DNA of 64,000 nt. It comes from Minisyncoccota bacterium. Lineage in GTDB: Bacteria; Patescibacteriota; Minisyncoccia; Phycocordibacterales; UBA9973. Below the pieces are notes generated by a model, which was not told where the DNA came from, made no database searches, and worked only from the letters and a program-made list of their open reading frames with translations. Every line of letters starts with the position of its first letter. Position 1 is the first letter of the stretch. The translations under genes and the position numbers were made by a program. The stretch is from the NCBI GenBank assembly GCA_041658325.1, contig JBBAAI010000001.1, positions 279,266 through 343,265 of the forward strand, read 5' to 3'. Below are positions 8,548 to 32,043 of the stretch, in pieces.

Positions 8548-10287
8548 ATGAACTCTCCCGTGCAAAAAATTAAGGAGAGGCTATCAATTGAAGAAGTAGT
8601 CTCTTCTTACATAAAGCTCGACCGAGTAGGTCCGAATTTAAAGGCTAAGTGTCCGTTTCATAACGAGAAAACCCCGTCGTTTTTCATCTCGCCTGATCGA
8701 GGTACTTATTATTGTTTTGGCTGTGGAGCGAAGGGTGATATTTTTACTTTCGTGGAAGAATTTGAGGGTCTTGATTTTAGAGGAGCCCTCAAATTGCTTG
8801 CCGGTAGGGCAGGAGTAGTGTTAGAAACCTTCAATCCAAAGGAAGAAAGCGAAAAAGAAAAAATATACAGAATCATGGAAGAAGCCTCTTTGTTTTTTGA
8901 AAAAAACTTGAAAGAAAATATTGAAGTTTTATCTTATCTTAAAAACAGGGGATTAAACGATGAAAGTATAAAAAATTTCCGTATTGGTTTTGTGAAGAAT
9001 GATTGGAGAGAATTATACCAGTATCTTACGAGTAGAGGTTTTAAAGATAGCGAATTAGAAAAAGCTGGTTTGGTGAAAAAAACAGAAAAAGGTTTTTATG
9101 ATAGATTTCGTGGACGCATAATGTTTCCCATGGGAGATTCTAGTGGGCGTATCGTCGCTTTTTCTGGAAGAATTTTTGTGGATGACGGGAAGTCGGCCAA
9201 ATATTTAAATAGTCCCGAGACCCTAATATTCAATAAATCTTCCGTTCTTTTCGGTATAGACAAAGCGAAAGAGACAATCAGAAAAAACAATTTTTCTATT
9301 CTCGTGGAAGGACAAATGGACTTGATTCTAGCGCACCAGGCAGGATTTAAAAATACCGTAGCCTCATCTGGCACAGCAATGACAGATTCAATATTGTCAA
9401 AAGAAAATATTATCAATAACCTTGGACTTGTTACTAGATTGTCGAAAAATATTGTCTTGGCTTACGATTCTGATAAGGCAGGCATTAATGCTTCAAATCG
9501 CTTTGCCAAAATTGCTTTATCTTTAGGAATGGATGTAAAAGTAGCAGATATACCAGAAGGTATGGATCCAGCTGATTTGATTTCTAAGATGGGGACAGAA
9601 GCTTGGCGAGAAGCGATAAGAAATTCAAAACATTTTATTGAATTTATGCTCGCTAGAATATTAAAGGATACTGACGATAAACGAAAAGTAGGCAGAGAGA
9701 TAAAAGAACGTTTACTTCCTTTCGTAAATGATTTAGAAAGTTCTATAGAAAAATCACATTTTATTACTTTAATTAGCAATCAATCTAGTATTCCAGAAAG
9801 TGCTTTAATAGAAGATTTAAAAAAGGTTGAATTCGAACAAAAACACGAAAAAGAAGATACAAAAATTGCTATAGAAAATGTAGAAAAAAAATTAAGAAAA
9901 GATCCAATCGAACGCAGGCTTCTAGGTATAGCTTTTTGGCAAGAAAGTTTGAAAATTAAAAAAATAGACCCGGAATTAATTTTTAAAAAGCTAGCCTTGT
10001 CTATAGGCTCTGGGCCGAAGGAGCAAGTAAAAGAAAAATATAAGGAAGTAAAAGAAGATTTAATCTATGAAGTAGAAGAATTTTATTTAAATGATGAAAA
10101 TTTAGAAAAAGATGTGAACGAAATGCTTCTTAGTATTGAAGAAGAGTATTTAAATGAAGAATTAATAAAAAAAATGATGGAATTGCAAAATTTAAAAGGG
10201 AAGGAAGAAGAGGTAGAAATTTTTAAAAAAATAAATGAATTAAATAAAAGAAAAGAAGAAATTAAAAATGGTCGTTTAAAAAAGTAA
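8548..10287 (+). CDS. dnaG: DNA primase
   Basis: The CHC2 zinc finger [30 protein letters not shown] is present. The TOPRIM region shows [13 protein letters not shown] Shine-Dalgarno precedes the ATG. The C-terminus is Lys/Glu-rich. Confidence 0.88.
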
Positions 10288-23133: not shown

Positions 23134-23165
23134 CCCTGCTTGTGGCAGGGGAGTTTCATTTTTCT
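23134..23165. terminator. Bidirectional rho-independent terminator shared by the DUF192 gene (+) and rnpB (-)
   Basis: The hairpin cccctgc-ttgt-gcagggg has U-rich tracts on both strands. Confidence 0.6.
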
Positions 23166-23166
23166 T

Positions 23167-23468
23167 GCAGGTATCTGTAAGCCGAATTTTGTATCCTGAC
23201 CGAAGTCAGGAGATAGCAATTTATCTAGGCCCTTGATTACTCAAAAGCTCAAGCGATTCTCCTCGACCGAAGTCGGGGCACGATCTTGCACACGCGTAGG
23301 TATTTTGCCGTTTCACCCGAACTAAATCGGTTCGTCACTGTTCGCAACCCTGAGATTGCTCTCGACGGGCGTTACCCGCTACGTTTAATCCCGCAAAAGC
23401 GGAGACTATGTGTTCGGACTTTCCTCTCTATGACTTACGCCTTAGAGTAGCTATCCGATGCCTGCCCC
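23167..23468 (-). ncRNA. rnpB: RNase P RNA (bacterial type A, reduced, ~300 nt)
   Basis: On the - strand, GAGGAAAGUCCGAAC matches the P4 5' consensus AGGAAAGUCCGGGC. GGGUAACGCC, GGUGAAACGG and CCUAGAUAAAUUGCUA are present. The P4 3' strand ACAAAAUUCGGCUUA matches the E. coli ACAGAACCCGGCUUA. The region is a GC-rich island with no ORF. Confidence 0.75.
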
Positions 23469-23494
23469 CGTACTCTAGCATATTTTCTCAAAAT

Positions 23495-23523
23495 TTGCAT
23501 TATTTTAACAAGTATGCTATACT
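23495..23523 (+). promoter_or_regulatory. Candidate sigma-70 promoter (TTGCAT-17-TATACT)
   Basis: Consensus-like hexamers with 17-nt spacing. A strong terminator lies ~60-90 nt downstream with no ORF between them. Confidence 0.3.
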
Positions 23524-23577
23524 CATCTAGTGAGTGTGAGGTTATTCTCACATTTATCGTAACAACATAAGTGCCGC

Positions 23578-23612
23578 AAAAGACGCCCTTCGGGGTGTCT
23601 TTTGTTTTTTGT
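23578..23612 (+). terminator. Rho-independent terminator
   Basis: The hairpin aagacgccc-ttcg-gggtgtctt is followed by TTGTTTTTT. Confidence 0.55.
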
Positions 23613-23984: not shown

Positions 23985-24014
23985 TCAAAAAACACCCTTT
24001 CGGGTGTTTTTTGT
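23985..24014 (+). terminator. Rho-independent terminator
   Basis: The hairpin aacaccc-tttc-gggtgtt is followed by TTTTGTTT. It closely resembles the terminator at 23578. Confidence 0.6.
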
Positions 24015-24156
24015 TTGGTGGACTTGGGGCTTCTTTTTTGGAAACAGTTTGCAAGAGAATCTGAGTATTTAGTCAGTATTTTGAAAGAGGTTGAAGTGTC
24101 CAGAAACACAAACACCCCACTAAAATAGTGAGGTGTTAATGTATTAAAATAAGTCG

Positions 24157-24291
24157 TTACTTCTTCTTCGGAGCACGTTGAGAGAGAGCACTTGCGGCAA
24201 CCGACCTTTCAAACTTAGTTGAATGAGGGTTTCGCAACACCGCCGCCGCTTCTGATGCAATCTTCGCACTTGTTTTTCTGCTGTGAGGCAT
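24157..24291 (-). CDS. Candidate small GC-rich ORF (44 aa)
   Basis: The product would be MPHSRKTSAKIASEAAAVLRNPHSTKFERSVAASALSQRAPKKK. The region is ~55% GC against a ~32% background. A hairpin and U-tract downstream (24103-24135) could terminate it. No Shine-Dalgarno is present, and it could instead be a structured RNA. Confidence 0.3.
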   Translation of the reverse strand: MPHSRKTSAKIASEAAAVLRNPHSTKFERSVAASALSQRAPKKK

Positions 24292-24422
24292 AAAGAATTT
24301 ATAGTGTTATTTTATAAATTTATAGAGATGACCGACTTCATCTTCTCTGTATTTATTTTCTAAAACAATAATACTTATGCACCACTAAGTAATTTTGTTT
24401 TAAAAATTTTAATCTTATAAAA

Positions 24423-24713
24423 CTAGCCCCAACATTTAGGGAGTTTCAAGAGATTATCAGTTTGAGTTGAATCAGGAACAGTTTTAACGTATTTTGTTCC
24501 CAAGGGACTTATGGCAGTGATTAAGTACGCTTTGTTGCCATATGCATCAGAAACGTATGCTCGTCCACCTTGGACAACAAAATTATACATTTCTATACGT
24601 GCACTTTTACCTCGTTGATTGGTATTCACGTTGACCCATCCTAATTCGCTTATAGCGGTATGAGGATTTTCATGATTACCACTGTCTTTCTTGATACAAG
24701 TGATTTCTAACAT
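24423..24713 (-). CDS. DUF3892 domain protein
   Basis: The pattern ITCIKKDSGNHENPHTAISELGW...GKSARIEM...GGRAYV...GTKYVKTV...TDNLLKLP matches the conserved spacing of DUF3892, including the terminal TDNLLxLP. Confidence 0.65.
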   Translation of the reverse strand: MLEITCIKKDSGNHENPHTAISELGWVNVNTNQRGKSARIEMYNFVVQGGRAYVSDAYGNKAYLITAISPLGTKYVKTVPDSTQTDNLLKLPKCWG

Positions 24714-24877
24714 ATTTTTATATATGAAATTATTGATAATGCCGTAAATAAGTGGTAAGCTTTGATTGTTGAGGTCTTGGCTCTTTTCCGTCCGACCGAA
24801 TGTGGTGCCATTATATAACGTCCAGTTTATCTGCGGAGGGAACCATTAATATTGATTCCTTAAACACATTGTAACAC

Positions 24878-24898
24878 ATGTAAAGGATTTCTTTACAT
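24878..24898. promoter_or_regulatory. Perfect palindrome ATGTAAAG-gattt-CTTTACAT between divergent DUF3892 and lexA-like genes
   Basis: Read directly from the sequence. Overlapping half-sites TGTAACA and ACATGT lie just upstream. Candidate repressor operator. Confidence 0.35.
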
Positions 24899-24920
24899 AG
24901 GAATGTTCATAAACTGTGGA

Positions 24921-24949
24921 TTGACAGTGGATAACTTGGGTGGTACACT
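24921..24949 (+). promoter_or_regulatory. Candidate sigma-70 promoter (TTGACA-17-TACACT) for the lexA-like gene
   Basis: A consensus -35 with 17-nt spacing. The -10 ends 14 nt before the ATG at 24964. Confidence 0.45.
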
Positions 24950-24963
24950 TATATCAATTCTCA

Positions 24964-25569
24964 ATGAGTCAATTACATAAAAATCAAATAAAACTCTTAA
25001 AATATTTAGAAGGAATCCAAGATTTTGATGGTATCAGTCTTTGGGATATTGCCAGAGAAGCAGAGCTTAATAACGCTCAGACAGTAAAACACCACCTTTC
25101 TCAATTAGAAAAATTAGGATATCTTAGAAGGGATTTAAAAAATTCTTCTTTTGAAATTCTTAAAAGTCCCATTGAAGACATTGCTTATATTAATCTTTTA
25201 GGATTCGCCGTGTGTGGCAATAGTGGAGAATTTTTTTCGGAAGAAAATCTGGAAGATAAAATTGCAGTTTCAACAAAGTTGTTGGGTATTTCAAATCTTC
25301 AGGATACTTTTGCAGTTAAAGCAAAAGGTGATTCTATGCTCCCTGAGGTGTTAGATAATGATTTAGTTATATTTCAAAAACAAGATGATATAGGTAATGC
25401 GGATATAGGTTTAGTTATAGACAACGGAGAGCCGAAGATTAAACAAGTTATTAAAAATAAAAATGAAATAATTTTAAGGTCTTATAACAAAAGTTACCCA
25501 GACAAAATCATCACAAAAAAAGACCTTTGTGTCCTTGGATTGGCTAAGAAAATAATTCATAGTATTTAG
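24964..25569 (+). CDS. LexA/phage CI-like repressor, S24 peptidase family
   Basis: The N-terminus is a winged-helix region (LWDIAREAELNNAQTVKHHLSQLEKLGYL). The C-terminal S24 domain carries the GDSM serine motif (AVKAKGDSMLPEV) and the catalytic-Lys region EPKIKQVI. I chose the ATG at 24964 because the annotated GTG at 24940 lies inside the predicted promoter. Confidence 0.8.
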   Translation: MSQLHKNQIKLLKYLEGIQDFDGISLWDIAREAELNNAQTVKHHLSQLEKLGYLRRDLKNSSFEILKSPIEDIAYINLLGFAVCGNSGEFFSEENLEDKIAVSTKLLGISNLQDTFAVKAKGDSMLPEVLDNDLVIFQKQDDIGNADIGLVIDNGEPKIKQVIKNKNEIILRSYNKSYPDKIITKKDLCVLGLAKKIIHSI

Positions 25570-25738
25570 TGAAACTTTTTTCTGTTTTAGTTTTTTTATC
25601 TTCAAGCCACAATTCAAAAAGAATCTCAGCCAATTTATCATCATTGTCTCTAAGTTTTTAAATTTGTTCCTCAGAAAGTTTTTTAAGCAATTTTTTTCCA
25701 AGAGCTTTTTTATATTATTTTAAAGAAAGCATTTTTGA

Positions 25739-26179
25739 TTATAGCCATTCATTCACCCCTCCATGACGAGAACAAGTACCTCTCCTATTTTGGCTAAAAC
25801 TGTAAGTGCCATCACCACATCGAGCAGAAGCTCCAGCTGGTACTGAATTTGAATAGGCTGGAGAATGGACACTATTGCCATAAGTATTTGTGTAATAATT
25901 ATCATTCGAAAGAGAACTTGTATTATTGCTTGGTGTTGTCTTTGGGGCTACCACACTTGGTGCTGTAAATTGGTGTGGTTGAGTATTATATGAATTATAT
26001 GTAGGAATTGTCTGTATTTCTGGATTTACTACTTGGTTGCTTGAATTACCGCCTGAACCTAAAATAACTAAAAATACTGCAATTAGACCAGTTCCGATAT
26101 ATCTTTTTTTCTTATACCAAGGTCTTTCGTCTTTAATATTGGGAATATTTTTTTTTTCGTTTTCCATATTTAATAACAA
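25739..26179 (-). CDS. DUF3761-like secreted/membrane-anchored protein
   Basis: An N-terminal TM helix is followed by a Ser/Thr/Asn-rich linker. The C-terminal CGDGTYSFSQNRRGTCSRHGGVNEWL matches the DUF3761 C-terminal motif. Confidence 0.55.
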   Translation of the reverse strand: MLLNMENEKKNIPNIKDERPWYKKKRYIGTGLIAVFLVILGSGGNSSNQVVNPEIQTIPTYNSYNTQPHQFTAPSVVAPKTTPSNNTSSLSNDNYYTNTYGNSVHSPAYSNSVPAGASARCGDGTYSFSQNRRGTCSRHGGVNEWL

Positions 26180-27108
26180 TTTATACTTCCGATTGTGCCA
26201 AATTCATCAGAATGAGAACTGAAGCTACAATTAAGAGGTTTTACTTGTTGAGAATATAATTGATTTAAACTACTTTGTAGTGCCTGTGTCTTTTTTAAAT
26301 CAGATACAGCGATAACTAACTGCGACCAGAAATTTTTGTACATTTCGTCCTTTGTGTTTGTTTGGCTCATATATTGAGTCATCGCTAATTTAACACCACC
26401 ATCATAAAGTTTTTGCCAATAATTTTGATATTCAGTCAGTATTTGAATTTCACTGTTATATTCTGCTTCTGATGCTGAAGATTTTGCGGAAAATTTTATA
26501 TATTCAATATTAAGTGCAGATATTTTTTCGTTATTGATGTGGTTTTTTATATCAGAAAAGATTTTCCGATAAAAATCAACAATCTGACTTTTATCAAGAT
26601 TGTAGGCTTCAATAAAAATACTATATGCATGACTAACAGAAGAATCTGTTTCACTAGCCATTAAAGAATTAGTGCTTGAGATAAGCCCGTTTAATATACT
26701 CTCTCTTTGGGAGAGTAGGGGCGTCATGTCATTATCAATCCACTGTATGATTGCTTTATAGGAATTGATTTGTGCATTTATAGCTGAAAGAATTGGCTCT
26801 CTGAAATTTTTAGCTGTGGGTGCAACAACTTCTGTTTTTATAGGTGGAGTTTGCACACTAACTTGTGTTGAAGTTCCGTTTGTTTCTTTTTTAGGAGCAG
26901 TATTTTTTGATACTTCTTCGCTGATTGTTTTTTCATTATTAACTGAAACTTCTTCTGTCGCTGTGGTGATTACGTTAGATTTAGGAATATTTTGTGGAGA
27001 TTTAGATATTTTGTGGGCGATAAAATAACCGCCACCGCCAAAAACAACTGCACTAACAATAATTGCTATTAAAATTGGTATTTGTATAAAGCCTTTTTGA
27101 TTTTTCAT
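26170..27108 (-). CDS. Hypothetical secreted protein with pilin-like hydrophobic N-terminus
   Basis: The N-terminus MKNQKGFIQIPILIAIIVSAVVFGG resembles a prepilin-like leader, but the +5 Glu is absent. The rest has no recognised domain. Confidence 0.45.
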   Translation of the reverse strand: MKNQKGFIQIPILIAIIVSAVVFGGGGYFIAHKISKSPQNIPKSNVITTATEEVSVNNEKTISEEVSKNTAPKKETNGTSTQVSVQTPPIKTEVVAPTAKNFREPILSAINAQINSYKAIIQWIDNDMTPLLSQRESILNGLISSTNSLMASETDSSVSHAYSIFIEAYNLDKSQIVDFYRKIFSDIKNHINNEKISALNIEYIKFSAKSSASEAEYNSEIQILTEYQNYWQKLYDGGVKLAMTQYMSQTNTKDEMYKNFWSQLVIAVSDLKKTQALQSSLNQLYSQQVKPLNCSFSSHSDEFGTIGSINCY

Positions 27109-27152
27109 ATTACACTTTTTTTAATTAATAATGTTAATTTGTAATTAGTTAA

Positions 27153-27584
27153 CTATTCTTCATCATTACTACCAAATGTCTTTAAATCAATTAATTTTGA
27201 CTTATACATAATTTCTATTTCTTTGTTTTCAGCATCACTTGTAAATGTGTGGAAAAAATATGTTTCTCCTGTATAAATATCTTTTATTGAATAATGACCC
27301 ACAGCCCCAGAATTCTTTTTATCTTTAAATAAAAGCACGCTTAAGTATAATGCTTCTATACAACTTTTTTGTTTTTGACTGTATAAGGCATGATTTGAAA
27401 CTGTCATTATTCCAGTATCATCTATGTTTGATTTTGGTGCTTCCGCACTCATTTTTTCATAAGCCTTAACACACCCTTCTTGCCTCGCTAGTAAATCTTT
27501 TGTTTGTTTCCCTGAGATATAAAAGATTGTAAAAGCTAAAACCGCGACTCCGATAAAAATAAAAAGTATATTTTGTTTCTTCAT
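27153..27584 (-). CDS. Hypothetical membrane-anchored protein
   Basis: An ORF with an N-terminal TM helix in the same minus-strand run as the flanking small genes. Confidence 0.45.
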   Translation of the reverse strand: MKKQNILFIFIGVAVLAFTIFYISGKQTKDLLARQEGCVKAYEKMSAEAPKSNIDDTGIMTVSNHALYSQKQKSCIEALYLSVLLFKDKKNSGAVGHYSIKDIYTGETYFFHTFTSDAENKEIEIMYKSKLIDLKTFGSNDEE

Positions 27585-27588
27585 GTTA

Positions 27589-27780
27589 TTAATTATTTTT
27601 TTTATTTTGGTAAGACCAATAAATGAACATTAAGAAAATTATTATTCCACCAGTTAAGGAGAAAGCTATGAACTTCTCTCCACCTGTTAAATCTTCTCCA
27701 TTTCTTATGAAATGACCAAAAGAAATAAGCAAGAACCACCAGTTGCGACTCAAAAATTTACCAAAAGTTTCTTTTTCCAT
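27589..27780 (-). CDS. Small hypothetical membrane protein (63 aa)
   Basis: It has two predicted hydrophobic helices and is the first gene of the minus-strand run 27780 to 25739. Confidence 0.3.
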   Translation of the reverse strand: MEKETFGKFLSRNWWFLLISFGHFIRNGEDLTGGEKFIAFSLTGGIIIFLMFIYWSYQNKKNN

Positions 27781-28196
27781 GTGCTTATATTTTGTTTATT
27801 ATTAATAATTCCCGCAGTTGGTAAACAAAAAGCCCACCACTAGGAAAGCCCGAAGGCTTTTATGCAAGTTTCCTCGCATAACGCGTTCAACGCCCCAATG
27901 ATGGGTTTTTTATGTTGAACGCGATTCATAACCATACTCTACTGTTCTTACAATGGAGGTTAGGTCTTATATTTATTTGATTGTTTAGGTATTATATCAC
28001 TTTGATATAGATTTACCATGCCATAGAGCATTATAGGCTTGCTATAGCAATAGCAGGTAAAATTATAGCTCATAAGAAAATCCTTTGTTTATAACCATGG
28101 GGACGGGAGGAGGGACAAATAAACATCACTAGAAAGAATATACTCATCCCTAAATCCATGCCTTTTTAAACTTTTTGTATTACAATTCCAATAGTT

Positions 28197-29075
28197 ATGA
28201 TTAATCCAAAAACGTCAAAGCCAAGTGAATTATTTGAGGGGTTAATAGAAATTGAATTACAACTTCAAAAGAAACTGGAAGAATTAGAAAATACCTACAA
28301 TGAAACCTATCAAAAAGTCAGTGTTGATTTTAAGGTAGCGGGTATTTTAGAATACGAACATGATTCTGGTTCACTGGGTGAAGTAATAAAACATGCAAAT
28401 GAAATTATAAAAATAATTGAGAATATTTTGCACAGTGAAACTATCAATAAAGCCTACACAAAAAGACTTAAGTCAATAACAGAAATTGACAGAAAAACAG
28501 GTTTGAAAAATTTTAAACAAGGGTGGTTAAAAGATGTTGGTAACCATGATTACATAACCGTGTTAATGGATGCCCTATCGGTTGATGAGTGGATTGATAA
28601 ATGTAAAGAAGTTGCACATTATTTAGCAGATTTTGTTGGAGAAAAAAATCCACTTGTTGAAGATTTAAATTTAAATAAAACTTCAAAAGAAAAAACGGAA
28701 ATAAAAGGAATAGATAATAGTAGTGAGGAAATTTACTTAAAAACTTTAGGCATAAAAATTAAGGGAGATTGTATTGCTAAGGGAACAATGAATCTTAAAA
28801 AAGTATTTAATCCCACAGAAAAAGCTTTGATATATTTTTTATTTTTTAGATTTTTAAAGAACAAAGATGAATGTTTTACAATAGATAGTTTAGCAAAAGA
28901 ACTAAAAAAATCAGAAGCTTATATAAAGAATAGCCTTACCAATATATATAAAATAATTAGAAAGACTATGTCACAAGCAAATACTTCTATAAAATGGGAA
29001 CCTCTCATAAAAAATGAACCGAGACGTGGGTATCACTTGAATCCTAGACTTTTTATAGAGGTCATAAAAAAATAA
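28197..29075 (+). CDS. Hypothetical regulator with OmpR/PhoB-type winged-helix C-terminal domain
   Basis: The C-terminus WEPLIKNEPRRGYHLNP resembles the Trans_reg_C recognition wing (xVRGxGYRL). There is no receiver domain. The N-terminal 200 aa are unrecognised. Confidence 0.4.
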   Translation: MINPKTSKPSELFEGLIEIELQLQKKLEELENTYNETYQKVSVDFKVAGILEYEHDSGSLGEVIKHANEIIKIIENILHSETINKAYTKRLKSITEIDRKTGLKNFKQGWLKDVGNHDYITVLMDALSVDEWIDKCKEVAHYLADFVGEKNPLVEDLNLNKTSKEKTEIKGIDNSSEEIYLKTLGIKIKGDCIAKGTMNLKKVFNPTEKALIYFLFFRFLKNKDECFTIDSLAKELKKSEAYIKNSLTNIYKIIRKTMSQANTSIKWEPLIKNEPRRGYHLNPRLFIEVIKK

Positions 29076-29240
29076 CAATTTTAAAAAAAGTTTTAGAATA
29101 TTAATCCTTTGTGTAAAAAACACCTTTCTAAATAATGGTGTTTTTTTTATTGTAATAAATGAGTCACAATTTTGTGATTTTTTTTCATGTCAAAATTAGA
29201 ATAATCCTAAATAAAGGAGATTATAAATAATTAAAAAAAG

Positions 29241-29456
29241 ATGAGAAGCATTGAAAGAAAATTTAAGTATGTTCAGAGAAAAAATCCTTACTGGTCATCA
29301 TTCACTTGCTTTGCCAACACAGTACGTGGGAGGAACTTTAGTAGAGATAGAATTAGGAAATATTTCAACGAATTGGTAGACAAAGAAGAATATGCAAAAG
29401 ACGAGAAGGGGCAAATATTAAAATACTTGTACGACTTAACAAAAGACATGCTGTAG
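29241..29456 (+). CDS. Hypothetical small basic protein (71 aa)
   Basis: ORF only. Confidence 0.3.
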   Translation: MRSIERKFKYVQRKNPYWSSFTCFANTVRGRNFSRDRIRKYFNELVDKEEYAKDEKGQILKYLYDLTKDML

Positions 29457-29472
29457 CGTACCAGTTTTAGAT

Positions 29473-29937
29473 GTGAATGTAGATTATAAACCAGACAGAA
29501 TTCTAAAATGGAGTACTCTGTCCACTAGTAAAAAAATTATGATAAATGACGTAAAAAAGTATTATTTTAGCGAAGCTGTGGCAAAAGAAATAGGAGTTGA
29601 AGAAGCTATTATGTTTAGCAACATATTCTTTTGGGTTAATCACAACAAAAAGAAAAAGAGCGATTATCATTATTATCAAGGCAAGTATTGGATGTTTAAT
29701 ACTGTGCTTAAATTTAAGGAGCAATACTCTTTCTGGACAGTTGCAACAATTAGAAGAATTCTTAATAACCTCCAAAAGAATTCTTATATAGAAGCTGGAA
29801 GATTTAACAAGCATGGGTATGACAAAACCAAATGGTACACAGTTGCCGAAAAAGCCTTTGATGTTGTTGAGAACGACAAAGACTTTGTTGAAACCATTAA
29901 TTCGTTAAGCGAAGAACAGCCAACCAATACCAGATAA
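29473..29937 (+). CDS. Hypothetical protein (154 aa), possible HTH
   Basis: ORF with coding-like composition. Contains SEAVAKEIGVEEAIM, a possible HTH. Confidence 0.4.
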   Translation: MNVDYKPDRILKWSTLSTSKKIMINDVKKYYFSEAVAKEIGVEEAIMFSNIFFWVNHNKKKKSDYHYYQGKYWMFNTVLKFKEQYSFWTVATIRRILNNLQKNSYIEAGRFNKHGYDKTKWYTVAEKAFDVVENDKDFVETINSLSEEQPTNTR

Positions 29938-30008
29938 TATACACAAATAGTATACACATATAGTAATTGATATTATTCATCTCTCCTGCGGATAGATGAA
30001 CCCCCTAT

Positions 30009-30041
30009 AAGATTTATATTCTGAACAGGAATAAATATCTT
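30009..30041. promoter_or_regulatory. Imperfect 13-bp inverted repeat flanking a 7-bp core (AAGATTTATATTC-tgaacag-GAATAAATATCTT)
   Basis: Read directly from the sequence, ~290 bp upstream of the serine recombinase. This geometry is typical of serine-recombinase sites. Confidence 0.3.
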
Positions 30042-30326
30042 GGTTGGCCTAATACGATTATGGTGGTGCGAAGTTAAAACTATTTAGGTGGTTTTTTCCA
30101 ACAATGCGTCAAAAATAAATTAGAAATGATATAATGAAGGAGCTACACGAAAGGTTAATAAGCGAAATTAATTTTATGCCTAGAGAGGGGCAACGAGACC
30201 TTTTGTGTAGCTACAGAAAGTCGCTTCGTTGTCCCTCTTTCGGTATTACTAATAACACGCCTGAAGATGCATCGCTAGATTATTTGGCAAGTATTCTGGT
30301 TGGGGCATTCTTGGATAAAAAAGAAC

Positions 30327-31880
30327 ATGAACATAACCAATTACACAAATCAAAAGAAAGCAGTAATATATTGCCGAGTATCAACCAAAGAACAAGTTGA
30401 CGAAGGCAACAGTTTAAGTACCCAAGAGAAAATCTGTAGAGAATATTGTTTTAAAAATGAATATGATATTTTCCAAACTTTTCTTGAGCAAGGGGAAAGT
30501 GCAAAGACGGCAGACCGTACAGAGCTTCAAAAGCTTCTTGCCTTTTGTGCGGATAAAAAGAATCAAGTAAAAGCAGTAGTAATTTATAAACTGGATAGAT
30601 TGTCTCGCAATACAGATGATTATAGTCAACTTCGTCTTTTACTAAAAAGATATGGAGTGGAAATTAAATCTACATCAGAACATTTTGAAAATAACCCTGT
30701 AGGTCGTTTTATGGAGAATACTATGGCGAATATCGCACAATTTGATAATGACATCCGCTCTGAACGCTGTGCTGGTGGAATGAAAGATGCCATGCGTGAT
30801 GGTAGGTATGTGTGGATGGCTACGGTGGGATATGACAACGTAAAAATAGCAGGGAGGGCAACTATTGCACAAAACGAAATAATGGCTCCATTGATAAAGA
30901 AAACATTTGAACTTATCGCCTTAAATACTTATCCAACGGAAGAAGTTCGAAGAATGATAACAAAAGAGGGGTTGTTAAATCGTAAAGGAAATCCTTTTTC
31001 AAAGGGATATTTTTATAAAATGCTTACCAATGAACTTTTTGCAGGGTGGATTGTTAAGTTTGGAGAAAGGCATAAAGGTACTTCTTTTACACCGATTATC
31101 TCGGAAGAACTTTTTAACCAAGTACAAAGGATATTAAAAAGAAAGGGGAGAAAACATTCTGCTTATCTTACAGATAATCCAGATTTTCCACTTCGTAAGT
31201 TTATAAAAAATGATACAGGTAAAGTACTAACGGGTAGTTGGTCTAGCGGAAGAGATAGAAAATATCCTTTTTATCGTTTTGGTAACGACAAATCAAGTCT
31301 TAATAGAGATACTTTTGAAAAAGACTTTAAAGAATTTATGGATAGATATAAATTAGATGAGAAACATTATCAAAAACTTAAAATACTTGTCCGAGACAAT
31401 CTTACAAAAGCAACATCTGAGCAGAGGAAAGAAGCCGAGCAACTTCAAAAACATATTGATGAATTAAATGAAAAACAATCTGCAATCATTAAGAAGAATC
31501 TTGATGGGGTAATTAATGATAATGTTTTAAAACAACAGCTAGAGCTTATTGAAAATCAATTAACAGATGCAACAGCTTCTCTTTCTAACATTCCAAATAG
31601 TGATGCTGACTACGAAAAGATGCTTGATTTTATGGAAGAATATTTAAAACAACCAAGCAAGATATGGTCTGAAATAAAAAAGGTAGGGATAAAAATTAAA
31701 CTTCAATGGTTCCAATTTCCTTTAGGTTTGACGTTTGAAAATAAAATATTTGGAACCAAGGAAGTAGCTAGTGTTTTCAAAGTAAAAGACGCTTTTTCAG
31801 CGTCTTCGTACTCTAGGGTGGACCGTACAGGACTCGAACCTGCCACCCCCTCATTGCAAATGAGGTGCTCTACCAGATGA
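30327..31880 (+). CDS. Large serine recombinase (resolvase/invertase-type catalytic domain plus recombinase and coiled-coil domains)
   Basis: The catalytic motif AVIYCRVSTKEQ contains the nucleophile Ser. The resolvase core YKLDRLSRN is followed by a ~350-aa C-terminal extension with a coiled-coil. The last ~20 codons read antisense through tRNA-Ala. Confidence 0.85.
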   Translation: MNITNYTNQKKAVIYCRVSTKEQVDEGNSLSTQEKICREYCFKNEYDIFQTFLEQGESAKTADRTELQKLLAFCADKKNQVKAVVIYKLDRLSRNTDDYSQLRLLLKRYGVEIKSTSEHFENNPVGRFMENTMANIAQFDNDIRSERCAGGMKDAMRDGRYVWMATVGYDNVKIAGRATIAQNEIMAPLIKKTFELIALNTYPTEEVRRMITKEGLLNRKGNPFSKGYFYKMLTNELFAGWIVKFGERHKGTSFTPIISEELFNQVQRILKRKGRKHSAYLTDNPDFPLRKFIKNDTGKVLTGSWSSGRDRKYPFYRFGNDKSSLNRDTFEKDFKEFMDRYKLDEKHYQKLKILVRDNLTKATSEQRKEAEQLQKHIDELNEKQSAIIKKNLDGVINDNVLKQQLELIENQLTDATASLSNIPNSDADYEKMLDFMEEYLKQPSKIWSEIKKVGIKIKLQWFQFPLGLTFENKIFGTKEVASVFKVKDAFSASSYSRVDRTGLEPATPSLQMRCSTR

Positions 31881-31891
31881 GCTAACGGCCC
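31819..31891 (-). tRNA. tRNA-Ala (anticodon TGC)
   Basis: The cloverleaf was read by hand. The acceptor is GGGCCGT/ACGGTCC with the G3:U70 Ala identity pair. The anticodon loop is TTTGCAA and the T-loop is TTCGAGT. The discriminator is A. Confidence 0.85.
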
Positions 31892-31939
31892 ATATTATTT
31901 TTTCAATCCCGCTTTTCTTATCCTATGTTGCTTTTACGA

Positions 31940-31975
31940 GGCGCTACAAATGAACTAATGGCCCATATTTACCCA
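31940..31975 (-). pseudogene. Degenerate duplicate of the tRNA-Ala 5' half (D-arm and anticodon stem)
   Basis: gaggcgctacaaatgaactaatggcccatat aligns to the tRNA region gaggtgctctaccagatgagctaacggcccatat. It lies 48 bp outside the tRNA 5' end in the same orientation. Confidence 0.5.
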
Positions 31976-32043
31976 AAGATATTCTATCTTATTTTGCCAA
32001 TAATGCAAATTTTTTTATTATTTTTTAGTGTACAATAAGTAAC

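What the first reader, a model, noticed from the sequence alone, without database searches (positions are those of the whole stretch)
24878..25569. LexA/CI-type S24 repressor with a perfect palindrome upstream, divergent from DUF3892
The repressor has a wHTH plus a C-terminal autopeptidase domain (GDSM...KIK), so RecA-stimulated self-cleavage is expected by family knowledge. A 21-bp perfect palindrome ATGTAAAG-N5-CTTTACAT lies at about -70 to -45, with overlapping TGTAACA and ACATGT half-sites. It matches neither the E. coli (CTGT-N8-ACAG) nor the Gram-positive (GAAC-N4-GTTC) SOS boxes. Two readings are open: a host LexA with a lineage-specific box, or the CI-like switch of the adjacent integrative element with DUF3892 as divergent partner.
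Basis: partly seen in the sequence, partly recalled or inferred. Interest (0 to 1): 0.5.

Follow-up and report, generated by a model that had tools for sequence, protein, structure and literature searches.

The report
Mobile-island LexA-like repressor with conserved operator
The gene is a self-cleaving LexA-type repressor carried on a 7.8-kb mobile island inserted at a tRNA gene of a candidate-phyla-radiation bacterium, and the palindrome in front of it is a conserved, clade-specific candidate operator placed over the promoter of the neighbouring cargo gene, a slot that holds anti-phage systems in four of the five related islands tested.

Summary
The ORF is a 201-aa LexA-fold protein (start ATG 24964) with a winged helix-turn-helix, an S24 domain, an invariant Ser124/Lys160 and a Cys84-Gly85 cleavage site. 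The palindrome is exact at 24878-24898. Such palindromes are common in this window, so its weight comes from conservation. TGTAAA-N7-TTTACA lies at the same place in 13 of 14 distinct promoters of this protein clade. It is in none of 114 promoters of other LexA homologues, which carry AGAAC direct repeats.

A syntenic relative (L178) lacks 24024-31816. That stretch is bounded by GGTGGAC repeats at the tRNA-Ala 3' end. It carries DUF3892, the repressor, a LOOT RNA, a DnaD-like initiator and a large serine recombinase.

In related islands the divergent slot holds CBASS, Thoeris, DUF2188 or DUF3892. The palindrome covers -18 to -36 of a predicted leftward promoter, so cargo repression released by autocleavage is the likely mechanism. 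Three DnaA-box-like 9-mers overlap the repressor's own -35. The "TGTAACA half-site" is probably an extended -10.

Binding, cleavage and a genome-wide regulon are untested.

The parts
24964..25569 (+). LexA-family repressor gene, 201 aa. It has an N-terminal LexA-type winged helix-turn-helix, a Cys84-Gly85 putative cleavage site, and an S24 autopeptidase domain with Ser124 and Lys160.
   Evidence: Pfam. Alignments. TIGR00498 scores 75.4 bits over its full length. Best PDB match is T. maritima LexA 3k2z at 1.6e-16, full length. AlphaFold2 mean pLDDT 86 and Foldseek top hits are LexA.
24879..24897 (.). Conserved dyad TGTAAAG-N5-CTTTACA, the candidate operator.
   Evidence: Conserved in orthologous promoters. 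Specific to this clade: 11 of 15 family promoters against 0 of 114 others.
24921..24949 (+). Predicted promoter of the repressor gene: TTGACA, 17 nt, TACACT with a TG before the -10. The inferred transcription start is near 24956.
   Evidence: TTGAC and a TAnAnT -10 are conserved in the family alignment.
24904..24934 (+). Three head-to-tail 9-mers separated by exactly 2 bp: TGTTCATAA, TGTGGATTG and AGTGGATAA. Each is 1-2 mismatches from the DnaA-box consensus TGTGNATAA. They span -52 to -22 of the repressor promoter.
   Evidence: Read. The first two are conserved in nearly all of the 14 family promoters (the second is degenerate in L004) and the third in 7 of 14. GTGGAT-N5-GTGGAT is unique in the window. 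Apart from one 1-mismatch hit in L055 it occurs only at these promoters in 1.25 Mb of loci.
24868..24876 (-). Predicted extended -10 (TGTTACAAT) of the leftward cargo promoter. It places the palindrome at -18 to -36.
   Evidence: Read. The same TGnTAnAAT lies 2-4 nt from the dyad in L103, L002 and L082. The consensus scan requires a -35 and did not find it.
24423..24713 (-). DUF3892 gene in the divergent cargo slot.
   Evidence: Pfam 2e-11. DUF3892 is divergent from the repressor also in L002, L082/L083, L084, L103 and L014.
24017..24023 (.). Left copy of the 7-bp direct repeat GGTGGAC, the candidate left attachment core.
   Evidence: Junction comparison with the empty sites in L178 and L177.
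24024..31816 (.). 7.8-kb island that is absent from the syntenic site of L178.
   Evidence: blastn against L178: synteny holds up to 23581 and resumes at 31818. Gene lists.
27845..27966 (-). LOOT RNA (Rfam RF03000), a recurrent part of this kind of island.
   Evidence: Found in 10 of the 17 other recombinase-bearing LexA loci scanned, including all 7 scanned ones of this clade.
29473..29937 (+). DnaD-like replication-initiator gene.
   Evidence: phrog_11233 at 1.7e-27.
30327..31880 (+). Large serine recombinase gene. Its last 64 nt run antisense into tRNA-Ala.
   Evidence: Pfam Resolvase 1.6e-32 and Recombinase 5e-11. Gene call. Overlap with the tRNA.
31816..31892 (-). tRNA-Ala(TGC), the integration target. 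The right copy of GGTGGAC is at 31817-31823.

Best explanation
The gene encodes a LexA-family autocleavable repressor that belongs to a 7.8-kb integrative island (window 24024-31816). The island is inserted at the 3' end of tRNA-Ala by a large serine recombinase.

Proposed mechanism:
1. A dimer binds the conserved dyad TGTAAAG-N5-CTTTACA.
2. The dyad lies over the spacer and -35 region (-18 to -36) of the leftward promoter, so binding blocks transcription of the divergent cargo gene, here DUF3892.
3. The dyad is centred at about -68 of the repressor's own promoter. That promoter carries a separate array of three DnaA-box-like 9-mers across its -35.
4. On DNA damage, or on damage caused by phage, activated RecA would stimulate self-cleavage at Cys84-Gly85 by the Ser124/Lys160 dyad. 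This would free the cargo promoter.

Shown: the fold and catalytic residues, conservation and clade specificity of the dyad, the insertion, and the nature of the cargo in relatives.
Inferred: DNA binding at the dyad, the position of the leftward promoter, RecA dependence, and the identity of whatever binds the 9-mers.
For: Protein. It matches LexA over its full length. S124, K160 and G85 are invariant across all 29 aligned sequences, and C84 within the clade.

Operator.
- TGTAAA is invariant in 14 of 14 promoters and TTTACA is exact in 10 of 14, at 22-24 nt from the -35.
- The dyad is present in 11 of 15 family promoters and 0 of 114 others. AGAAC-N7/8-AGAAC is present in 0 of 15 family promoters and 61 of 114 others.
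- The recognition helix also differs between the clades: N-A-Q-T/N-V-x-H-H here against S-P/T-S-x-V/M-x-H-H.
- DnaA-like boxes occur in both clades (5 of 15 and 20 of 114, against 0.009 expected per region). They are therefore not the clade-specific site.

Leftward promoter. An extended -10 lies 2-4 nt from the dyad in the window, L103, L002 and L082. In 7 of 14 loci the left arm is itself a -35, TTTACA with a TATAAT-like -10 16 nt downstream. Only 10% of control TTTACA sites show this.

Island.
- L178 keeps MreB, TGT, OrnDC, DUF192, RNase P RNA, the small unit, tRNA-Ala(-) and PLD, but lacks 24024-31816.
- The junctions share GGTGGAC.
- A serine recombinase lies downstream on the same strand in 6 of 10 family loci, and upstream in 0 of 54 loci of either clade.
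- The recombinase abuts a tRNA in 7 loci.
- L013 has a perfect 25-bp repeat bracketing lexA through the recombinase.

Cargo slot. L001 has a CBASS cyclase plus patatin effector. L088 has a CBASS cyclase plus 2TM effector. L095 has DUF2188 plus ThsB and ThsA. L086 has a ThsB TIR protein. DUF3892 and DUF2188 are also cargo of the DNA-damage-responsive CapH/CapP modules (bioRxiv 10.1101/2022.04.27.489752).
Against: No binding or cleavage data exist.

Operator.
- There is only one dyad per locus. No second copy was found in the window or in any flank.
- It lies 59-77 bp upstream of the repressor's own start, so autoregulation is unexplained.
- The right arm is degenerate in 4 of 14 promoters, and the spacer is one base longer in L095.
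- L102, at 51% identity, has no dyad.

Promoter. The leftward promoter in the window was read by eye. The consensus scan did not find it.

Alternative sites. Related LexA clades use direct repeats, so the phased 9-mers over the -35 could be the real operator.

Context. Four family loci (L002, L003, L082, L089) show no recombinase within reach. The first stretch of the island (24024-24128) holds no recognisable attachment sequence apart from an open frame continuous with the recombinase.

Inducer. Neither RecA nor any other LexA of this genome was seen.
Confidence: 0.6

Rival explanations
1. The protein is an island-borne LexA-family repressor, but it binds the three 11-bp-phased 9-mers (TGTKCATAA, TGTGGATTG, AGTGGATAA) that overlap its own -35. 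This would resemble the direct-repeat LexA boxes of Alphaproteobacteria and of other Patescibacteria. On this reading the palindrome is mainly promoter sequence for the leftward gene, or the site of another factor.
For: - The 9-mer block is the most conserved part of the promoter and overlaps the -35, which is the usual place for a repressor.
- Apart from one 1-mismatch hit in L055, it occurs only at these promoters in 1.25 Mb of loci.
- LexA homologues of other candidate-phyla-radiation lineages have phased AGAAC direct repeats that run into GTTCTTGAC.
- A secondary source cites the 2017 Patescibacteria study for direct-repeat LexA motifs (PMC7739468).
- The left arm of the dyad doubles as a -35 in 7 of 14 loci. 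That alone could explain why it is invariant.
Against: - Exact TGTGNATAA boxes also occur in 20 of 114 promoters of the other clade, which has a different recognition helix and its own AGAAC sites. They lie there at varied positions and in both orientations. This points to a shared host factor.
- The boxes match the DnaA consensus, and 9-mers 2 bp apart fit a DnaA-type array (my own knowledge of E. coli oriC).
- The third box is missing in 7 of 14 promoters, and the second is degenerate in L004.
- No rightward promoter function accounts for conservation of the right arm. No -10 lies at a workable spacing from it.
Confidence: 0.2
2. This is the host's SOS master regulator with a lineage-specific box. 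The dyad also precedes recA, uvrA or polymerase genes elsewhere in the genome, and the island context is incidental or the gene has been domesticated.
For: - The protein has full LexA architecture.
- LexA-binding motifs are known to change between lineages and after duplication (PMC8565304).
- L089 and L082 have housekeeping neighbours and no recombinase within 10 kb.
- Only 64 kb of the 356,709-bp source contig could be read.
Against: - The gene lies inside an insertion that the syntenic relative L178 lacks.
- It is linked to a recombinase, LOOT RNA, terminase, methyltransferase and defence cargo in relatives.
- Chromosomal neighbours differ at every locus.
- One copy is cut by an insertion sequence, judged by eye from the upstream DNA of L005.
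- No second site was found in the window or in any flank.
- The TIGR00498 score is 75.4 against a cut-off of 110.95.
- In L089 and L082 a tRNA lies 170-380 bp downstream of the gene, as expected for island remnants.
Confidence: 0.12
3. The palindrome has no function. It is one of many chance AT-rich palindromes.
For: About 35 distinct perfect palindromes with 8-nt arms occur in the window, against about 20 in shuffles. The specific pattern with up to 3 mismatches is expected 0.76 times per window.
Against: It is conserved in position and sequence across promoters whose proteins are only 51-75% identical, while the spacer and flanks vary. It is absent from 114 promoters of the other clade.
Confidence: 0.03

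Closest known systems
Canonical LexA (E. coli; Thermotoga maritima, PDB 3k2z)
   Same: Same two-domain fold over the full length: a winged helix-turn-helix plus an S24 domain with a Ser/Lys dyad. The cleavage loop with its invariant Gly is in the same place. The candidate operator is a roughly 19-bp dyad of a size a dimer could span.
   Different: - Only 17-28% identical.
- Below the TIGR00498 cut-off.
- Cys-Gly instead of Ala-Gly at the cleavage site.
- The operator, TGTAAA-N7-TTTACA, matches no box I know of.
- Encoded on a mobile island with a single known site next to cargo. No DNA-repair regulon was seen.
LexA homologues of other Patescibacteria and candidate-phyla-radiation lineages (loci L006-L080 and L104-L174; compare Sanchez-Osuna et al. 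2017, Environ Microbiol 19:3465, not readable here)
   Same: - 31-42% identical, of the same length, with a Cys-Gly site.
- The promoter is built in the same way, with sites upstream of and running into a TTGAC -35.
- DnaA-box-like 9-mers are frequent.
- Eight of 53 also sit upstream of a serine recombinase.
   Different: - Their promoters carry tAGAACa-N5-tAGAACa followed by GTTCTTGAC and never the dyad.
- The recognition-helix residues differ.
- Most of them are not next to a recombinase.
Lambda CI, SXT SetR and the S24 repressors of phage satellites
   Same: An autocleavable S24 repressor encoded on an integrative element, next to a divergent promoter. Induction is expected through RecA*. 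Weak matches (25-29%) to repressors of Streptococcus satellite phages. phrog_4 'transcriptional repressor' matches at 3.7e-21.
   Different: - The DNA-binding domain is of the LexA winged-helix type, not the Xre/HTH_3 type.
- There is one operator, not an OR1-3 array.
- The divergent partner is cargo, not a Cro-like protein.
- In relatives the repressor appears to be the first gene of an operon with p253, a methyltransferase, TerS and TerL.
CapH/CapP (and BrxR/CapW) regulators of defence systems
   Same: Same layout and cargo: a regulator upstream of, and divergent from, CBASS, DUF3892 or DUF2188 operons. Release on DNA damage is proposed in both cases.
   Different: Here a single polypeptide combines the repressor with a serine autopeptidase. 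CapH/CapP is an HTH repressor plus a separate metallopeptidase. There is no sequence relationship.

Membership tests
LexA (SOS repressor, TIGR00498 equivalog) | N-terminal LexA-type winged helix-turn-helix (PF01726) | tested here: met
   PF01726 scores 22.5 bits against a cut-off of 23.7 in this protein, and passes in many clade members. The profile aligns residues 1-202 to 3k2z residues 1-196. The AlphaFold2 model shows helices 6-16, 26-32 and 38-50 plus a beta wing. The Foldseek top hits are full-length LexA.
LexA (SOS repressor, TIGR00498 equivalog) | S24 domain with catalytic Ser and Lys | tested here: met
   PF00717 at 4e-19. S124 and K160 are invariant in 29 sequences.
LexA (SOS repressor, TIGR00498 equivalog) | Ala-Gly scissile bond in the cleavage loop | tested here: inconclusive
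   The aligned position is Cys84-Gly85, invariant in the clade. Cys-Gly is the UmuD cleavage site (my own knowledge). Cleavage itself was not tested.
LexA (SOS repressor, TIGR00498 equivalog) | Score at or above the curated equivalog cut-off | tested here: not met
   75.4 bits against 110.95.
LexA (SOS repressor, TIGR00498 equivalog) | Controls a DNA-repair regulon through repeated boxes (recA, uvrA, translesion polymerases) | tested here: inconclusive
   No second site in the 64-kb window or in 1.25 Mb of flanks. No recA or uvrA is in the window. The rest of the genome could not be searched.
LexA (SOS repressor, TIGR00498 equivalog) | Stable chromosomal gene of the host | tested here: not met
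   It lies inside a 7.8-kb insertion that is absent from syntenic L178. Its neighbours vary among relatives.
LexA (SOS repressor, TIGR00498 equivalog) | RecA*-stimulated self-cleavage | not testable with these tools
   Needs biochemistry.
S24 immunity repressors of mobile elements (CI/SetR type) | Encoded within an integrative element, at a divergent promoter region | tested here: met
S24 immunity repressors of mobile elements (CI/SetR type) | Xre/HTH_3-type N-terminal domain | tested here: not met
   There is no HTH_3 hit. The domain is the LexA type.
S24 immunity repressors of mobile elements (CI/SetR type) | Multiple operators and a divergent Cro-like antagonist | tested here: not met
   There is a single dyad. 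The divergent genes are DUF3892, CBASS or Thoeris.
CapH/CapP-type defence regulators | Regulator divergent from a defence or DUF3892/DUF2188 operon | tested here: met
CapH/CapP-type defence regulators | Two proteins: an HTH repressor plus a metallopeptidase | tested here: not met
   One S24 protein, with no PADLOC hit.

The most novel reading that the evidence does not exclude
A distinct LexA clade with a new operator (TGTAAA-N7-TTTACA) acts as a one-protein DNA-damage gate for a swappable defence-cargo slot holding CBASS, Thoeris, DUF2188 or DUF3892. The slot belongs to an undescribed family of small tRNA-integrating islands in candidate-phyla-radiation bacteria. These islands share three features: a LOOT RNA, a serine recombinase whose reading frame spans the attachment site, and a repressor promoter additionally wired to a DnaA-box array, that is, to replication status.
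Probability: 0.35. Interest if true: 0.65.

Novelty: new variant of a known kind. Interest (0 to 1): 0.5.

Why it matters
Mobile elements and gene regulation in candidate-phyla-radiation bacteria are almost unstudied, because the organisms are not cultured.

This locus offers a short, testable regulatory unit: one protein and one 19-bp dyad, with a cargo promoter beneath it. It links a LexA-type damage sensor to anti-phage cargo.

It also gives a genomic home to the orphan LOOT RNA.

Finally, it shows that 'LexA' annotations in these genomes mix host regulators with island repressors. That matters for any reconstruction of SOS networks from metagenome-assembled genomes.

Tried and rejected
- GTG 24940 as the start codon. 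Rejected, because homologues start at the position of ATG 24964 and the -10 overlaps the GTG.
- 'TGTAACA' and 'ACATGT' as half-sites. They are not conserved. TGTAACA fits an extended -10 on the other strand.
- A second operator at 29112 (TGTAAAAAACACCTTTCTA, 2 mismatches). It is the stem of a terminator-like hairpin after the 292-aa ORF.
- The 10-bp repeat CGTACTCTAG (23469-78 and 31807-16) as island ends. Rejected, because RNase P RNA, the small unit and the position of the 86-aa ORF are conserved in L178.
- A 35-nt inverted repeat (23470-23504 and 31999-32033). The two arms are similar promoters, not island ends.
- A displaced tRNA-Ala 3' half at the left end. None was found.
- L175 and L176 as empty sites. 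Their tRNA-Ala is on the other strand and their neighbours differ, so they were not usable. L178 was usable.
- The exact-protein look-up of PLD gave only the same arrangement.
- IMG/VR holds neither the clade nor its promoter core.
- The 2017 Patescibacteria SOS paper could not be read, so its motif is known here only from my own reading of the promoters.
- PADLOC finds nothing for the window's own cargo genes.
- No attempt was made to find a second lexA or recA in the same genome.
Full report
**1. What is in the sequence**

The palindrome ATGTAAAG-GATTT-CTTTACAT is exact at 24878-24898. It is the only match in the window even with three mismatches.

The ORF listed by the tool runs 24940-25569 from a GTG. 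The real start is almost certainly ATG 24964:
- Every homologue starts at the equivalent M-x-L-H.
- The GTG lies upstream of the predicted -10.

The 201-aa product matches Peptidase_S24 at 4e-19. It matches LexA_DNA_bind at 22.5 bits, just below the cut-off of 23.7. A profile of the clade aligns end to end with Thermotoga maritima LexA, PDB 3k2z, at 1.6e-16.

An AlphaFold2 model has mean pLDDT 86. It shows three helices, a beta wing and a beta-rich C-terminal domain. Its best Foldseek matches are full-length LexA structures.

- Ser124 (in GDSM), Lys160 (in KIK) and Gly85 are invariant across 29 sequences.
- The residue before Gly85 is Cys, invariant within the clade. The predicted scissile bond is therefore Cys-Gly, as in UmuD (my own knowledge), not Ala-Gly.
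- The protein scores 75.4 bits on the NCBI lexA equivalog model, below the cut-off of 110.95.

**2. Is the palindrome more than chance?**

Not on its own. The window holds about 35 distinct perfect palindromes with 8-nt arms, against about 20 in shuffles. The evidence comes from relatives.

The protein defines a small clade, 51-92% identical among members. All come from Paceibacteria-type metagenome genomes. I collected 14 distinct promoters of this clade and aligned them.

- TGTAAA is invariant in 14 of 14.
- The partner TTTACA is exact in 10 of 14.
- The five or six bases between the 7-nt arms vary freely.
- The dyad ends 22-24 nt before a TTGAC -35.

The cross-tabulation of distinct promoters:

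| Motif | This clade (n=15) | Other LexA homologues (n=114) |
|---|---|---|
| Dyad, up to 1 mismatch | 11 | 0 |
| AGAAC-N7/8-AGAAC | 0 | 61 |
| Exact TGTGNATAA | 5 | 20 |

The other homologues are 31-42% identical. They carry tAGAACa-N5-tAGAACa followed by GTTCTTGAC.

The recognition helix differs in step with the motif. It reads N-A-Q-T/N-V-x-H-H in this clade and S-P/T-S-x-V/M-x-H-H in the other. A motif that changes together with the DNA-binding helix is the best available in-silico pointer to the operator.

**3. The rest of the promoter**

The predicted promoter of the repressor gene is TTGACA (24921-26), 17 nt, TACACT (24944-49). The dyad therefore spans -77 to -59 of the repressor's own transcription start.

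Between the dyad and the -10 lie three 9-mers separated by exactly 2 bp:
- TGTTCATAA (24904-12)
- TGTGGATTG (24915-23)
- AGTGGATAA (24926-34)

Each is one or two mismatches from the DnaA-box consensus TGTGNATAA. In several relatives the first is an exact match, TGTGCATAA.

- The first two boxes are present in nearly all of the 14 promoters (the second is degenerate in L004), and the third in 7 of 14.
- Exact TGTGNATAA occurs in 25 of 129 distinct LexA-homologue promoters of both clades. The expectation is 0.009 per region.
- In the other clade the boxes lie between the -35 and the -10, or just before the start codon, in either orientation.

Because the boxes are shared by clades with different recognition helices, I read them as the site of a common host factor, most simply DnaA. 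That assignment is inference.

**4. The leftward promoter**

This is an extended -10, 2 nt from the dyad.

- The same TGnTAnAAT lies 2-4 nt from the dyad in L103, L002 and L082, the other loci with DUF3892 cargo.
- It puts the dyad at -18 to -36 of the leftward start.
- In 7 of 14 loci the left arm is itself a -35, TTTACA with a TATAAT-like hexamer 16 nt downstream. Only 10% of control TTTACA sites show this.

In both arrangements a protein bound at the dyad would occupy the RNA polymerase site of the cargo promoter. The consensus scan, which requires a -35, did not report the window's leftward promoter. It remains a prediction.

**5. Host gene or element gene?**

Locus L178 comes from a relative whose PLD protein is 73% identical. 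It keeps the gene order MreB, MreC, TGT, OrnDC, DUF192, RNase P RNA, a small conserved unit, tRNA-Ala (minus strand), PLD and tRNA-Asn.

The alignment with the window holds up to 23581 and resumes at 31818. In L178 a single small ORF and its terminator fill the gap. In the window the positional counterpart is the 86-aa ORF with its terminator, ending near 24012.

The junctions read as follows:

| Site | Sequence |
|---|---|
| L178, empty | ...TTTTTTTCTC-GTGGAC-CGTACAGG |
| Window, left | ...TTTTGTTTG-GTGGAC-TTGGGGCTTC |
| Window, right | ...GTACTCTAGG-GTGGAC-CGTACAGG |

So 24024-31816 (7.8 kb) is an insertion at the very 3' end of tRNA-Ala. It is flanked by GGTGGAC at 24017-23 and 31817-23. 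From left to right it contains:
- a 44-aa ORF;
- DUF3892;
- the repressor;
- four minus-strand genes for small membrane-anchored or DUF3761 proteins, headed by a LOOT RNA (27845-27966);
- a 292-aa ORF with no family match in Pfam, PHROGs or NCBIfam;
- a DnaD-like replication initiator (phrog_11233, 1.7e-27);
- a large serine recombinase.

**6. The same kind of island elsewhere**

A serine recombinase lies downstream on the same strand as follows:

| Clade | Loci with at least 6 kb of flank | Recombinase downstream, same strand | Recombinase upstream |
|---|---|---|---|
| This clade | 10 downstream, 7 upstream | 6 | 0 |
| Other clade | 53 downstream, 47 upstream | 8 | 0 |

- In L001, L086, L088 and L095 the repressor is followed by a ParB-methyltransferase, a small terminase subunit and a large terminase subunit (L086 scored against phrog_38 at 3.9e-78). 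L001, L086 and L095 also carry a reverse transcriptase. L084 has the methyltransferase and small terminase subunit only.
- No capsid genes were seen in these loci.
- The recombinase gene abuts a tRNA on the other strand in seven loci: Ala, Arg, Asp, Trp and Asn, plus two tRNAs cut by contig ends.
- L013 has a perfect 25-bp direct repeat bracketing lexA through the recombinase.
- In L089 and L082 there is no recombinase, but a tRNA lies 170-380 bp after the repressor gene. They look like remnants.
- In L005 the N-terminal part of the gene is missing from the match. I read the upstream DNA by eye as an IS3-type transposase.
- The clade is absent from IMG/VR.

**7. The divergent slot**

| Locus | Genes divergent from the repressor |
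|---|---|
| L001 | CBASS cyclase (6e-135) and patatin effector (8e-106) |
| L086 | ThsB-like TIR protein |
| L088 | CBASS cyclase and 2TM effector |
| L095 | DUF2188, ThsB (7e-73) and ThsA (1e-80) |
| L084 | DUF3892 and a PADLOC candidate protein |
| Window, L103, L002, L082/L083 | DUF3892 |

L001 and L086 share a backbone that is 92-96% identical, yet they differ in this slot. L014, which has a LexA of the other clade, also has DUF3892 in the slot.

DUF3892 and DUF2188 operons are also found divergent from CapH/CapP regulators. Those regulators switch CBASS on after DNA damage (bioRxiv 10.1101/2022.04.27.489752). The window's pair is therefore a one-protein analogue of that layout.

**8. Mechanism and its status**

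- **Shown:** the LexA fold with an intact dyad and cleavage loop; a clade-specific conserved dyad; its position relative to predicted promoters; the insertion; the cargo content of relatives.
- **Inferred:** the protein binds the dyad as a dimer and blocks the leftward promoter; RecA* triggers cleavage at Cys84-Gly85; cleavage releases DUF3892 expression; the 9-mer array is bound by DnaA and sets the repressor's own expression.

The main uncertainty is which of the two conserved elements the protein binds. I put the dyad at roughly 3 to 1 over the 9-mers. The host-SOS reading keeps about 0.12, because the rest of the genome could not be scanned.

**9. Novelty**

Autocleavable repressors on integrative elements are textbook. 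What differs here:
- a LexA-type DNA-binding domain in that role;
- an operator that matches no LexA box I know of;
- a single site placed over a cargo promoter rather than a lysis-lysogeny switch;
- a host group in which almost nothing is known about regulation or mobile elements.

I rate it a new variant of a known kind, with interest 0.5.

Noticed in passing
window 27845-27966 (-); L001 13164-13282, L084 6676-6800, L086 16267-16386, L088 15652-15771, L095 7230-7355, L098 14867-14985, L102 7599-7716, L027 4754-4882, L035 8887-9012, L104 5423-5541; also L177 8654-8772 and L178 13794-13916: LOOT RNA (Rfam RF03000, an orphan motif) occurs in 10 of the 17 other recombinase-bearing LexA loci scanned, including all 7 scanned ones of this clade. 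It occurs in none of the four family loci without a recombinase. In the six loci checked its 3' end lies 53-66 nt before the start of a same-strand gene, often one for a small membrane-anchored protein. It looks like a 5' leader. L177 has LOOT beside a recombinase and a Rep gene but no S24 gene within the locus.
   Followed up: partly
window 30327-31880 against tRNA-Ala 31816-31892; L027 13574-15112, L171 12921-14459, L014 8115-9641, L007 3810-5345: In five islands at five different tRNAs, the serine recombinase reading frame runs 39-64 nt antisense into the tRNA. The attachment core therefore lies inside the gene's 3' end. In the window the frame would continue across a circle junction for 36 codons, to 24128, instead of 18. 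Integration thus swaps the C-terminal tail of the recombinase, which could act as a directionality or stability switch.
   Followed up: partly
upstream 150 nt of LexA homologues in L006, L008, L035, L038, L047, L074, L130 and others: Exact DnaA-box consensus (TGTGNATAA or TTATNCACA) occurs in 25 of 129 distinct LexA-homologue promoters of candidate-phyla-radiation and related lineages, about 20-fold over background. Many are perfect TTATCCACA between the -35 and the -10, or TGTGGATAA 15-17 nt before the start codon. This suggests a link between replication status and lexA expression that I have not seen described.
   Followed up: partly
L007, L009, L011, L014, L018-L020, L023, L035, L037, L061 and others, upstream of lexA: The other LexA clade has a very uniform promoter: tAGAACa-N5-tAGAACaAGTCAA-N3-GTTCTTGAC. 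This is presumably the Patescibacteria LexA box. Eight of 53 such loci also have a serine recombinase downstream, so some 'host' LexA annotations there are island repressors.
   Followed up: partly
L013 3411-3435 and 8681-8705: A perfect 25-bp direct repeat spans the tRNA-Trp 3' end and brackets a 5.3-kb unit from lexA to the serine recombinase. This is a clean example of the island type.
   Followed up: no
window 31935-31969 (-); L176 about 9695-9730; L178 about 9910-9945: A degenerate copy of the first 33 nt or so of tRNA-Ala lies between the tRNA promoter and the intact tRNA. It is conserved in three relatives but absent from L175. L176 also has a 20-nt duplicate of the tRNA-Ala 3' end about 170 nt downstream, a likely scar of a past integration.
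   Followed up: partly
window 23490-23612 (+); L175 1436-1558; L178 9175-9246; L177 16-95: A small conserved unit follows RNase P RNA. It has a promoter-like TTTGCA, 18 nt, TATACT, then about 60 nt, then a strong terminator (23577-23612). It has no ORF and no Rfam hit, so it may be an unknown small RNA.
   Followed up: no
window 23162-23466 (-) against L175 1080-1387 (+) and L178 8780-9116 (+): The RNase P RNA gene is inverted in the window relative to both relatives, while the genes on either side keep their orientation.
   Followed up: no
L176 11084-11333 and 15518-17845: A group I intron (RF00028) lies where the window has tRNA-Asn. The flanks align to the two tRNA halves. Nearby is a 775-aa protein that combines an SLFN-like helicase, nSTAND3 and Peptidase_S24.
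   Followed up: no
L001 against L086, about 100 nt between the dyad and the first cargo gene; also L084: The leader of the leftward transcript is conserved between islands with different cargo (for example CCTGACTAGT...GGCGCA...AGCATTA). It may be a regulatory leader or the edge of the cargo-exchange site.
   Followed up: no
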